Source: Fimbriosthenelais zetlandica
Taxonomy: Eukaryota
Assembly: GCA_977030845.1 (NCBI GenBank)
Contig: OZ365110.1
Span: forward strand, 41,168,001-41,232,000
Reading direction: 5' to 3'
Length of the DNA: 64,000 nt
The position numbers were made by a program. Of this stretch, positions 61,101 to 64,000 are shown in pieces. How positions within the stretch are numbered: the first letter of the stretch is position 1; the number at the start of each line of letters is the position of its first letter.

Positions 61101-64000
61101 CAACCACTCCCACTCCCTCTCACGATTTAAGCAGAAGTAATTATCATAAATTAAAAAAATGTATAAATGGTGGTTTTATCGAGCTTCTACTAAGGTTTTA
61201 TCCATAAATTATGTGCCATGAATCTTACAATGACCTGGAACTATTTTTTTTATTACTTTAGATGAAACGTCTGACAATCTTAGGTGTATAATTATGATGA
61301 TGAGCATAACCTATAACCGGACTTTGTTACTGTTTCAGATTTTACTGTAAAAAGTCTGAAAGAAGAGATCACTGCTACCAAATCATAGAGTGGATGTCGA
61401 TCACCAAGGAGGCTGCTAAAGCCAAGGGTGGAAGCGACAGGGAGCCGATCACAGAAGCTAGGAAATCCACAACAGAACCCAATATCTGGGACCAAGTCTT
61501 TGAGCCCGAGACACCAACCCTCAATGGAGGGTCTGGGAAGAATAAGCTAAAACAAGGAAATGTTGAAAATGGAAGAGAAAGAACCGATAATGATGCACAC
61601 AATCATGATGTTACGTCAACAAATGGAGGAAGTAGAGAGGAGGAGGGGAAGAGGAGAGATAATGGTGGAAATGATAAAGAATCCGATCATTCCTGGCTTG
61701 TAAGTCAGTTATACGGGGAAGAAAATGAGGAAGGAGAGGTTGGGGATGGACAACAAGAGAATTCAGAAAGTGGCCATGTAAGCCTGACTGATGGAAACAA
61801 TGGATTGGGTCAGGAAGCATTGTCACAGTCTCCCAATACCGGAGGGATCCACCACTCTACCGATGGACAGGTAGGCGGGGAAGGGATGACCACTGCCCCT
61901 CACACTGACCAGTCCAGCAGCTGGTGGAATGCTGGACAGTGGACTGGAAATTGGATGGGTGGATGGCCTGGCGTTGTTCCACCACATCCGCATCCATACA
62001 CTTCTAATAATACTGAAAGTACACAAGCTTATAACGCATGGCTTTCTGAATACAACCGGTCTCAGGCTAACCACTACTGGAGACAGGGGTCCTGGGATGG
62101 GAGATATCGGGACAGGAGTCAGGATAGGAGGTACAGTCGTGACAGGAGCCGTTCACAAGAGCATGACTGGCGGGATCATAGGAGGAGAGAGACCTCTGAT
62201 AGGGAAAGGGATAGAAAAAAGGAGAAGGAAAGGAGCTCAAGAGATGACAGGGACAGGAAAGATGGTAGGAGAAGTGGTAGGGATTATGACAGGTCGAGGA
62301 GTAGTACTACATCAGGTTCACACAGTGGCAGAAGTAAAAGTTACCACACTGATAGTAGGCGAGAGAAGGAGCCTACAAGGAGTGACTCCTATCGGGCCAG
62401 AAGAAGGGACAGAGACAGCTACCAGGAGGACAGGAAGGACAGAGATCAGTCACGACACAGTGAACGCTACTCTTCGAGACGTGAATCCAACGAGAGGGAA
62501 TCCCGGAGCAGAGATACAAATGGGGAAAACTCAAGTGTGAAAGATAGAAGGGATTCCCGTTCACGGAGAGACAATCGGGACCCAGCGTACCGGGATAGGA
62601 GCAGAGGCTCTAATGAACCCGCTGTATTGGACCAAACAAAGGAGAAAAGCCTCGAGAAGGCAAATGAGTGCTTTCTTAATGATGAAGTTACCTTGAAAAA
62701 GCAAGAGAATAATAGGGACCCTCCGAAGTCTTCGAGACCGGCAGAAAGCAAAAGTGATGATGGAGTTAAGATGGATGTCGGTCTGAAAAAAAGTTCTGAA
62801 AGAGAAGTGCCCAATGCCACTGTTCAAAAAGAGGAAAAGAAAAGAGGTGACAAGGCAAACCAAAGTGGAAAGGTTAGTGAGACGAAACGGACAAGAATCA
62901 GAATTAAGAGTTCATCTGACTCAGGATCAGAATCCAGCTCCTCTTCCTCCTCCTCTTCATCCTCTGGTTCAGGTTCCTCTAGCTCTGGATCCAGCTCCAG
63001 TTCAGACTCCAGTTCCAGTTCCTCCAGTGATGAGGAAGACGAGGATGAAGCAAAAGAGACTGAGGAGCAAGAAGAGAAAGGAAAGGTTGAGAAGTTAGAA
63101 TCTACAGCGACTCATGGGCATGAGAGAGAGCATCTTGAGAATGAGAAGGAATCTGCAAAAGTGACATTAGATGATGCACAAAGCAAAGGTGGACAAGAAA
63201 AGTGTGGTCTTTCCCCTTCCCATATCACTAGGAAAGAAAAGGAAAAAGATAAACTGCAGCAAGAAAAAGATAAGAGATCACAGCCATTCAACAATAGATT
63301 GCCTGTTCCTCGCCAAGTGGGTTTAAAAGAAAAAATAAAAATAAAACTGAAACCACGGCCTATGATTATGAAACAAGAGCTTCATATGAAGCCTGTTGAT
63401 CTTCTGGCTACAGATGATCTCACTACTGAGTGTTCTGAGCCTGACATTAAAGGAAATGTGATGTGTGTTGAAGAAAAGGACATACAAGAAGGGGAGAAAA
63501 TAGGAAAGGAGGAGGAGAAAATAGGACAAGAGGAGGAGAAAGTAAGAAAAGAAGAGATTGGAAACGATGTGGAGAACATGGGAAAAGAGGAGGACATAGG
63601 GAAAGAAGAGGAGGAAATAGGAAAACAAGGGGAGGAAATAGGAAAACAAGAGGAGGATATAAGGAAAAAAGAGGAGGAAATAGAGGAAGGGAAAGATGGA
63701 AAGAGCGAGAACCATGAAGTGCTTTATCCCCATGAAAGCATGGCTTCATCTTTAGATGTCCCAGAACAAGAAGATAAAAATGAATATGCATTACAAACAG
63801 TGGCAGAAACGAGCCTTGGTGCTAATAAAGCCAACTTGAATTTGAATCAACCAAGTGAGAAAACCAACCAAGATCCTGTAATAAACCCTGAAAAGAAGAA
63901 GGAAGAGAAACCGATTGTCTATGATGATCCACCCAGCCCTCGTATCCCTGGATTCATGGATTCACCGAACCCAGGGTCTGTAGGAGGTGACCTGAACTAC

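What the first reader, a model, noticed from the sequence alone, without database searches (positions are those of the whole stretch)
61339..64000. Unannotated giant exon in phase with TRNAU1AP exon 2
Seen: >=2.66 kb open frame behind a clean acceptor. Its phase (2) matches the TRNAU1AP exon-2 donor, giving ...KRTG|FYCKK..., and I found no canonical TRNAU1AP exon 3 (PAGYCFVEF) between 57043 and 61338. There are three models: a giant alternative exon fusing half an RRM to a huge SR-like disordered region; a separate same-strand gene nested in TRNAU1AP intron 2; or a rearranged locus. Any of these is unusual for a selenocysteine-machinery gene.
Basis: partly seen in the sequence, partly recalled or inferred. 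Interest (0 to 1): 0.65.

Follow-up and report, generated by a model that had tools for sequence, protein, structure and literature searches.

The report
Separate giant SR-like gene beside TRNAU1AP
The long open frame is real coding sequence, but it most likely belongs to its own gene for a huge, disordered, arginine/serine-rich protein that starts just inside the exon, not to a new exon of the selenocysteine-tRNA-associated gene upstream.

Summary
An open frame runs from 61310 to the window end. A good acceptor sits at 61338/61339, and its phase fits the donor of a genuine TRNAU1AP-like exon 2 (56945-57042). No RNP1-type exon lies anywhere in the window.

The fusion reading is not favoured. 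The only relative found among 1.84 billion representative proteins is P0001, an unnamed 2659-aa protein. Its residue 1 aligns with the ATG at 61394, which is 18 codons inside the exon. Those 18 codons are compositionally unlike the rest of the frame. Being in phase and open between acceptor and ATG has a chance expectation of about 0.11.

The product has no Pfam domain and is predicted to be almost wholly disordered. It carries a 190-residue R/S/D/E-rich region, a poly-Ser/acidic tract and an E/K-rich tandem repeat. That makes it an SR-related protein without an RRM.

The most likely arrangement is an independent same-strand gene whose 5' leader is spliced onto 61339, probably nested in TRNAU1AP intron 2. 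Nesting, the upstream exon and a possible chimeric isoform cannot be settled without transcripts or sequence beyond 64000. Interest is modest.

The parts
55609..55641 (+). TRNAU1AP-like exon 1, coding part (MSSQATLWMGD). ATG context ACAGAAATGT, donor GAT|GTAAGT.
   Evidence: At 11 aa it is too short to be searched on its own.
56945..57042 (+). TRNAU1AP-like exon 2, the first half of RRM1. It ends with 2 nt of a Gly codon; donor GGG|GTAAGT.
   Evidence: PDB 2div_A residues 17-48, E = 1.2e-6.
57043..61338 (+). Interval between exon 2 and the giant exon. It is either the first part of TRNAU1AP intron 2 or intergenic DNA. No RRM-coding piece was found. It holds microsatellites, a 48-bp tandem repeat and a GC-richer stretch at 58900-59800.
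61322..61338 (+). Polypyrimidine tract and AG of the acceptor.
   Evidence: 70% pyrimidine in the 20 nt that end 2 nt before the exon start.
61339..61393 (+). 55-nt leader: one base plus 18 open codons (FYCKKSERRDHCYQIIEW). Read as 5' UTR in the favoured model. It contains no ATG.
   Evidence: 8 of 18 residues are F/Y/W/I/C against 6.7% in the frame after the ATG, binomial P = 9e-6. The stretch is absent from P0001.
61394..61396 (+). Proposed start codon of the giant gene, in the weak context GAGTGGATGT.
   Evidence: It aligns with residue 1 of P0001. Context.
61394..64000 (+). Coding sequence of the giant gene: the first 868 codons plus one further codon at the edge, open at the window end.
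61481..61510 (+). Conserved island NIWDQVFEPE (residues 30-39).
   Evidence: Invariant columns; alignment.
61679..61747 (+). Conserved island ESDHSWLVSQLYG.E..EGEVGD (residues 96-118). It contains a GTAAGT at 61700 that is read as coding.
61898..62089 (+). Trp-rich conserved islands: PHTDQ.SSWWNAGQW (residues 169-183) and NAW..EYNR..AN.YWR.G (residues 214-232).
62090..62650 (+). R/S/D/E-rich, RS-like mixed-charge region (residues 233-419).
   Evidence: 113 fifty-residue windows have R+S >= 40% with R >= 8 and S >= 8. The maximum is 52%, with 9 RS/SR dipeptides. The best 20-residue window has S+R of 65%.
62906..63049 (+). Poly-Ser tract followed by an acidic D/E run (residues about 505-552).
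   Evidence: Conserved in P0001.
63305..63361 (+). Conserved basic island VPRQV..KEKIKIKL.PRP (residues 638-656).
63486..63683 (+). 21-bp tandem repeat of 9.9 copies, in frame. It encodes E/K-rich heptads of the EEEIGK type with no counterpart in the P0001 alignment.

Best explanation
The frame from 61394 to the window end is the first third or so of an independent protein-coding gene on the + strand. By analogy with its one relative, the whole protein would be about 2,600 residues.

Translation starts at ATG 61394. Bases 61339-61393 are 5' leader, and the acceptor at 61338/61339 most likely joins an upstream non-coding exon that I could not locate.

The product is an intrinsically disordered SR-related protein without an RRM. 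It has short conserved Trp-rich and acidic islands, a roughly 190-residue R/S/D/E mixed-charge region, a poly-Ser/acidic tract, a basic KEKIKIKL island and a lineage-specific E/K-rich tandem repeat.

By analogy with RS-domain proteins I infer that it is nuclear, is phosphorylated on its RS-like and poly-Ser tracts, and acts as a multivalent scaffold in splicing or speckle-type condensates.

The TRNAU1AP-like exons 1-2 belong to a different gene. Its exon 3 must lie beyond 64000, so the giant gene is probably nested in TRNAU1AP intron 2.

Shown by tool results: the frame is coding, it has a collinear homologue, that homologue starts at the aligned ATG, no known domain is present, and the composition is as described. 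Inferred: the identity of the upstream exon, nesting, nuclear location and scaffold function.
For: 1. Coding. 886 open codons against a maximum of 180 in 1000 shuffles.
2. Homologue. 1 of 1,835,955,588 representative proteins reached E <= 0.001. This is P0001, 2659 aa, E = 7.4e-95, with query residues 23-716 matched to its residues 5-737. BLASTP gives 316/752 identities, E = 5e-80, and places ORF residue 29 (the ATG at 61394) against P0001 residue 1.
3. Collinearity. The alignment has no break over 61394 to about 63540, and it runs through a GTAAGT at 61700 that lies inside a conserved island.
4. Leader. 8 of 18 leader residues are F/Y/W/I/C against 6.7% downstream, P = 9e-6. 2 of 18 are Cys against 0.46%, P = 0.003.
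5. Splicing of the leader. Nine ATGs lie in 61159-61300 and none in 61339-61393. An unspliced leader is therefore unlikely and the acceptor is probably used.
6. Chance of the phase match. The stop frequency in the interval gives P(18 codons open) = 0.34, times 1/3 for phase = 0.11. 16 of 39 pyrimidine-rich AG sites in the interval are followed by at least 18 open codons.
7. No domain. No Pfam family at E <= 1 in the window frame or in P0001.
8. Disorder. AlphaFold2 gave mean pLDDT 40.9, with 730 of 868 residues below 50 and only isolated helices at 254-290, 621-626 and 698-763. 82% of residues are polar, charged, G, A or P.
9. RS-like region.
10. Structural sense. Exons 1-2 encode only the part of RRM1 before RNP1. 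Mouse exons 2-4 encode RRM1 (PMC4456167, passages read). A fusion at exon 2 would carry half a domain.
Against: - P0001 is an unnamed predicted protein from one 10,745-nt contig. If that contig is genomic and the gene caller simply took the first ATG of the open frame, the shared start shows only that the Met is conserved.
- The context of ATG 61394 is weak, with T at -3, whereas the TRNAU1AP ATG has A at -3.
- The frame is open and in phase from the exon-2 donor. If exon 2 is ever joined to 61339, translation from the TRNAU1AP ATG would read straight through.
- No upstream exon or promoter of the giant gene was identified.
- TRNAU1AP exon 3 was not seen, so nesting is assumed.
- The window part of the protein does not reach the strict 70% S+R threshold.
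- The structure prediction used an alignment of only 2 sequences, so its low confidence is weak evidence for disorder.
Confidence: 0.65

Rival explanations
1. Chimeric or shared-5'-exon isoform. TRNAU1AP exons 1-2 are spliced to 61339, always or alternatively. Translation from ATG 55609 then gives 44 residues of RRM1 fused in frame to the giant SR-like protein.
For: The donor phase of exon 2 fits the acceptor, and the 18 codons up to ATG 61394 are open. The acceptor looks good and is probably used, yet no other upstream exon was found. ATG 61394 has a weak context. Same-strand nested genes are liable to mis-splicing with their host (PMC3814207, passages read).
Against: The chance expectation of phase plus open leader is about 0.11. 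P0001 starts at the aligned Met and carries no RRM-like N-terminus. The leader composition is unlike the protein, P = 9e-6. Half an RRM without RNP1 is unlikely to fold (inference, using PMC4456167). None of 1115 candidates of 487-1551 aa, and only P0001 among 920 candidates of 1520-4340 aa, scored E <= 0.001, so no fused form was seen.
Confidence: 0.12
2. Rearranged locus. Exons 1-2 are a truncated remnant or partial duplicate of TRNAU1AP, the intact gene lies elsewhere, and the giant gene is simply the next gene downstream rather than nested.
For: No exon 3 or any RNP1-type motif lies in the 6,958 bases after exon 2, whereas intron 1 is only 1,303 nt. A nested giant gene would force intron 2 to exceed roughly 12 kb if the gene matches P0001 in length (inference).
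Against: Both exons are intact, with an ATG in good context, consensus GTAAGT donors and a good acceptor. Exon 2 is well conserved, E = 1.2e-6 to 2div_A. Nothing in the interval looks like a breakpoint or mobile element: no Pfam match above its cut-off and only local tandem repeats.
Confidence: 0.18
3. Not a gene. A purine-rich low-complexity stretch stays open by chance.
For: The strand is strongly purine-rich, with AT skew up to 0.5. Other frames of the same stretch are also open for 103-216 codons. No Pfam family was found.
Against: None of 1000 composition-matched shuffles exceeded 180 codons against 886 observed. The homologue is collinear at 42-47% identity, E = 7e-95, with conserved islands that are not low-complexity.
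Confidence: 0.02

Closest known systems
SR-related proteins without an RRM that are built around very large disordered regions, such as SRRM2 and SON (nuclear-speckle scaffolds)
   Same: Large size and almost complete predicted disorder. It has an R/S-rich mixed-charge region, Ser-rich and acidic tracts and internal tandem repeats, with a long uninterrupted coding exon. SRRM2 and SON have several RS domains and are needed for speckle formation (PMC9479744, passages read). The Atlas's nearest cluster is named 'serine/arginine repetitive matrix protein 2-like', but the score is only 0.83, so it is no more than a lead.
   Different: No sequence homology was detected to any named protein. No Pfam family at all was found in the window frame or in P0001, so it has none of the folded domains I recall for those proteins (cwf21 in SRRM2; G-patch and DSRM in SON; these domain names come from memory, not from a call). 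Arg here is paired with Asp/Glu as often as with Ser: 31 RD/DR, 17 RE/ER and 28 RS/SR dipeptides. S+R peaks at 65%, below the 70% used by PMC9479744.
TRNAU1AP / SECp43
   Same: Exons 1-2 just upstream on the same strand are TRNAU1AP-like, and the giant exon is in phase with them.
   Different: The giant frame has no RRM and no similarity to TRNAU1AP: Pfam found none, and the PDB search returned only a poly-Ser match to mL80 at E = 0.009. TRNAU1AP is a 287-aa protein with two RRMs and a Tyr-rich C-terminal domain, encoded by 9 small exons in mouse (PMC4456167).
Same-strand host/nested gene pairs, as catalogued in Drosophila
   Same: A gene lying after an early exon of another gene on the same strand. 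In Drosophila, same-strand nested genes tend to have few or no introns (72.5% are single-exon; PMC3814207). Here at least 2.6 kb of coding sequence is uninterrupted.
   Different: Nesting is unproven because the host's downstream exons are outside the window. The nested candidate appears to have a spliced leader. Its coding length would be about ten times the Drosophila median of roughly 820-900 given in that paper, if it matches P0001.

Membership tests
TRNAU1AP/SECp43 (for the giant exon) | Continuation of RRM1 (RNP1 motif) after exon 2, then a second RRM | tested here: not met
   No Pfam family in the frame at E <= 1. No RNP1-type pattern in any frame of 57043-64000. The PDB search of the frame returns no TRNAU1AP chain.
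TRNAU1AP/SECp43 (for exons 1-2) | Sequence match to the N-terminal half of RRM1 | tested here: met
   Exon 2 alone against 2div_A residues 17-48 gives E = 1.2e-6. Exon 1 ends ...LWMGD with a GTAAGT donor. Pfam RRM_1 does not detect the 32-aa exon on its own.
TRNAU1AP/SECp43 (whole gene) | Two RRMs plus a Tyr-rich C-terminal domain (PMC4456167) | not testable with these tools
   Exons 3 onward are not in the window, and no eukaryotic genome collection was available.
Canonical SR (SRSF) proteins | At least one N-terminal RRM (definition quoted in PMC9479744) | tested here: not met
   No RRM in the window frame or in P0001.
Canonical SR (SRSF) proteins | RS domain of at least 50 aa with more than 40% R+S and RS/SR dipeptides | tested here: met
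   Residues 233-419 give 113 windows of 50 aa with R+S >= 40% and R, S >= 8 each. The maximum is 52%, with 9 RS/SR dipeptides.
SR-related proteins (LCD-Composer definition of PMC9479744) | A 20-residue window with S >= 20%, R >= 20% and S+R >= 70% | tested here: inconclusive
   Window part: 67 windows pass the 20%/20% floor, the best has S+R of 65%, and 0 reach 70%. Homologue P0001: 3 windows reach 70%, maximum 75%. The paper says that known members are also found at 55-65%. The rest of the window's protein is unseen.
SRRM2 / SON type speckle scaffolds | Homology to those proteins and their folded domains | tested here: not met
   No Pfam family in 896 aa or in the 2659 aa of P0001. The exhaustive phmmer search found only P0001. 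The Atlas score of 0.83 is below the level at which the tool counts a hit as more than a lead.
Host/nested gene pair | The nested gene lies wholly inside one intron, with host exons on both sides | not testable with these tools
   Only the host's upstream exons are in the window, and the sequence ends at 64000 inside the giant frame.

The most novel reading that the evidence does not exclude
TRNAU1AP and the giant SR-like gene form one transcription unit with shared 5' exons. Splicing of exon 2 to 61339 would yield an in-frame chimera: the first 44 residues of the TRNAU1AP RRM on a protein of more than 870, probably about 2,600, disordered RS-like residues. That would physically couple a factor now linked to U1-type splicing control (PMC13408128, abstract and section 13) to an SR-like scaffold.
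Probability: 0.12. Interest if true: 0.55.

Novelty: new member of a known kind. Interest (0 to 1): 0.3.

Why it matters
The result corrects a tempting mis-annotation. A phase-compatible giant exon behind TRNAU1AP exon 2 is more likely a neighbouring or nested gene than a new isoform of a selenocysteine-machinery gene.

The gene itself is a very large, fast-evolving protein with no known domain. Only one detectable relative turned up in 1.84 billion representatives. It adds a lineage-restricted candidate to the RS-domain scaffold class.

If transcripts did show the chimera, the locus would be a natural case of host/nested mis-splicing or exon sharing that involves a splicing-linked RRM protein.

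Tried and rejected
- Pfam on 75 stop-to-stop + strand pieces of at least 22 aa from 57043-64000, to look for hidden RRM exons. None of the 75 matched RRM_1, but the positive control (exon 2, 1 of 1) was not detected either, so this negative is weak. The 10 families listed each had a single member, with a best E of 0.026. Alignment A2 served only as a container for unrelated pieces.
- Pfam on six longer frames of the interval. The only result was DUF2561 at 20.7 bits, below its 27.8 cut-off.
- Pfam on six minus-strand frames and one off-frame + strand frame under the giant exon: 0 of 7 matched. I read the antisense frames as by-products of the purine-rich strand.
- Rfam on the whole window: 0 matches.
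- PDB with the 868-aa frame: only mL80 at E = 0.009 over the poly-Ser tract, which I read as compositional.
- ESM Atlas on residues 1-300: best score 0.83, a level that shuffled proteins reach a third of the time.
- Naming the organism through the neighbouring KLF exon. The best public relatives are 46% and 42% identical and unnamed. The Atlas says only KLF5-like. The organism stays unknown.
- Candidate coding first exons in the interval. 6 GTRAG[TA] donors were examined. Only 2 have an in-frame ATG, giving 22 and 57 aa, and the latter lies in a microsatellite, so neither is convincing.
- No fold search was run, because the model has no confident fold.
- A search for papers holding both 'TRNAU1AP' and 'nested gene' found 0.
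Full report
**What the window is.** The 64-kb window has no N and about 38% GC. I do not take it for human. Its TRNAU1AP-like exon 2 matches the PDB chain of the TRNA selenocysteine associated protein only partially (E = 1.2e-6 over 32 residues). Its KLF-type exon has no public relative above 46% identity. The giant frame has a single relative, at 42-47% identity. The organism could not be named. It looks like an animal genome that is poorly represented in the protein collections.

**The observation.** In the standard code the frame is open from 61310 to the end of the window, 897 codons.
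- Chance: none of 1000 shuffles of the stretch gave more than 180 open codons, against 886 observed.
- Acceptor: it reads CTTTGTTACTGTTTCAG|A. Base composition changes sharply at about 61300.
- Upstream, on the same strand, lie a short exon with ATG 55609 (MSSQATLWMGD, donor GTAAGT) and an exon at 56945-57042.
- Exon 2, searched on its own, hits 2div_A residues 17-48.
- Patterns for the RNP1 and RNP2 motifs over all six frames gave 2 matches in the whole window (24872 + and 48826 -). Both are remote and in junk context, and none follows exon 2.

All four parts of the observation are confirmed.

**Exon-by-exon rule.** Exon 2 and the giant frame were each searched alone. Exon 1 (11 aa) is too short for any search tool. 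The joined sequence was not made, searched or folded, so nothing here tests the chimeric protein as such.

**What the giant frame is.** It has no Pfam family at E <= 1.
- An exhaustive phmmer search of 1,835,955,588 representative proteins found one protein with E <= 0.001. This is P0001, 2659 aa, E = 7.4e-95.
- The word-indexed searches agree. P0001 was the only one of 920 candidates of 1520-4340 aa to score, and 0 of 1115 candidates of 487-1551 aa scored.
- P0001 is unnamed, comes from a single 10,745-nt contig and has no Pfam family either.
- BLASTP aligns the two collinearly over 752 columns, with 316 identities and E = 5e-80.
- The alignment shows islands of high conservation, 17-22 identical residues per 30: NIWDQVFEPE, ESDHSWLVSQLYG, a Trp-rich PHTDQ.SSWWNAGQW, NAW..EYNR..AN.YWR, the R/S/D/E region, the poly-Ser tract and VPRQV..KEKIKIKL.PRP. 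Poorly conserved linkers lie between them.
- One island contains a perfect GTAAGT at 61700. This shows that consensus-looking splice signals occur inside this coding sequence.
- After about residue 690 similarity fades. The window carries a 21-bp in-frame tandem repeat of 9.9 copies that encodes E/K-rich heptads.

**Where translation starts.** Residue 1 of P0001 aligns with the Met encoded at 61394, which is 18 codons inside the exon.
- The 18 codons between the acceptor and that ATG (FYCKKSERRDHCYQIIEW) hold 8 F/Y/W/I/C residues, where the downstream frame has 6.7% (P = 9e-6). They hold 2 Cys, where it has 0.46% (P = 0.003).
- No ATG lies in 61339-61393, while nine lie in 61159-61300. The leader is therefore probably spliced at this acceptor rather than transcribed straight through.
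P(18 codons open) is 0.34 from the local stop frequency, which becomes 0.11 with the 1-in-3 phase match. 16 of 39 pyrimidine-rich AG sites in the interval are followed by at least 18 open codons in the frame set by the exon-2 phase.
- Against this reading, the ATG context is weak, with T at -3. P0001 is also only a prediction. If its contig is genomic, a shared first ATG shows only a conserved Met.

**What the protein is like.**
- Composition: S 13.1%, E 12.9%, K 8.9%, R 8.8%, D 8.2%, G 8.1%. Only 15% of residues are W/F/Y/I/L/V/M/C.
- Structure: AlphaFold2 with the two-sequence alignment gave mean pLDDT 40.9, with 730 of 868 residues below 50. It found only lone helices in charged stretches (254-290, 621-626, 698-728, 733-763). 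The shallow alignment makes this weak but consistent evidence for disorder.
- RS-like region: residues 233-419 meet the classical compositional criterion for an RS domain, namely at least 50 aa, more than 40% R+S and RS/SR dipeptides. The maximum is 52% with 9 dipeptides (criterion as quoted in PMC9479744, passages read).
- By the stricter criterion of that paper (20-residue windows, S and R each at least 20%, S+R at least 70%), the window part peaks at 65%, while P0001 reaches 75%. The paper notes that some known members pass only at 55-65%. I could not see its supplementary tables, which map RS domains across proteomes and might bear on this classification.
- Arg is paired with Asp/Glu about as often as with Ser. 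'RS-like mixed-charge' is therefore the accurate description.

I place the protein functionally with the SR-related proteins that lack an RRM, and by size and disorder nearest to the SRRM2/SON type of scaffold. It is not a member of those families, because no homology and no shared domain were found.

**The locus.** Mouse Trnau1ap has 9 small exons, and exons 2-4 encode RRM1 (PMC4456167, passages read). The window's exon 2 therefore stops in the middle of the domain, and the rest must be elsewhere. It is not in the 6,958 bases that follow.
- The simplest arrangement is that the giant gene sits inside TRNAU1AP intron 2 on the same strand.
- In Drosophila, 71% of nested genes are on the opposite strand. 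Same-strand ones are a minority, mostly single-exon, and this has been interpreted as selection against mis-splicing with the host (PMC3814207, passages read). A same-strand nested gene with a long uninterrupted coding exon fits that picture. Its apparently spliced leader is the risky element.
- The alternative is that exons 1-2 are a truncated copy and the giant gene is merely downstream. This cannot be excluded. The intact signals and the conservation of exon 2 argue mildly against it.
- Nothing else of note lies in the interval. It holds microsatellites, a 48-bp tandem repeat, a GC-richer C-skewed stretch at 58900-59800, no Pfam match above its cut-off and no convincing coding first exon.
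- The opposite strand under the giant exon has open frames of 109-140 aa with no family. I read these as by-products of the purine-rich strand.

**Context.** A 2026 paper reports that human TRNAU1AP works with PRPF39 in exon inclusion and co-purifies with U1, U4 and U5B snRNAs (PMC13408128; abstract and section 13 read). A physical or transcriptional link between a TRNAU1AP gene and an SR-like gene would therefore be of some interest. I have no evidence for such a link beyond adjacency and the phase match. A search for papers holding both 'TRNAU1AP' and 'nested gene' returned none.

**What stayed unchecked.**
- Transcripts.
- Sequence beyond 64000.
- Synteny in related genomes.
- The joined spliced model.
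- Supplementary files of the papers.

**Verdict.** The giant exon is real and coding. It most likely belongs to an independent, lineage-restricted gene for a giant SR-related disordered protein that starts at ATG 61394 (confidence about 0.65). A chimeric or shared-exon isoform remains possible (about 0.12), and so does a rearranged TRNAU1AP locus (about 0.18). I class it as a new member of a known kind, with interest 0.3.

Noticed in passing
window 6698-7464: A 175-bp tandem repeat of 4.4 copies at 90% match. Its minus-strand frame stays open for 191 aa (6905-7480) with a repeating peptide, and it has no Pfam family.
   Followed up: partly
window 44394-45728 (+): Terminal exon of a Krueppel-like factor: a Gln/Ser/Pro-rich region followed by three C2H2 fingers and a stop. 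The Atlas calls it KLF5-like at 0.98. The best public relatives are only 46% and 42% identical. It lies about 10 kb upstream of TRNAU1AP exon 1 on the same strand.
   Followed up: partly
window 63486-63683: A 21-bp in-frame tandem repeat of 9.9 copies inside the giant frame. It encodes E/K-rich heptads of the EEEIGK type that have no counterpart in the alignment with P0001, so it looks like a recent lineage-specific expansion.
   Followed up: partly
window 58900-59800: A GC-richer (0.43-0.47), C-skewed stretch with a CA microsatellite and a TATA-like run near 59250, lying between TRNAU1AP exon 2 and the giant exon. It could hold the promoter or leader exon of the giant gene, but this is untested.
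   Followed up: no
window 61159-61300: A TATAAA lies near 61163, about 175 nt upstream of the acceptor. Nine ATGs follow before 61339, which argues against an unspliced leader starting there.
   Followed up: partly
window 24000-25300 and 8633-8720: A pyrimidine-rich low-complexity tract with strongly negative GC skew (-0.32), giving long spurious open frames with repeated PSIH-type peptides. There is also a perfect (TTCT)22 microsatellite.
   Followed up: no
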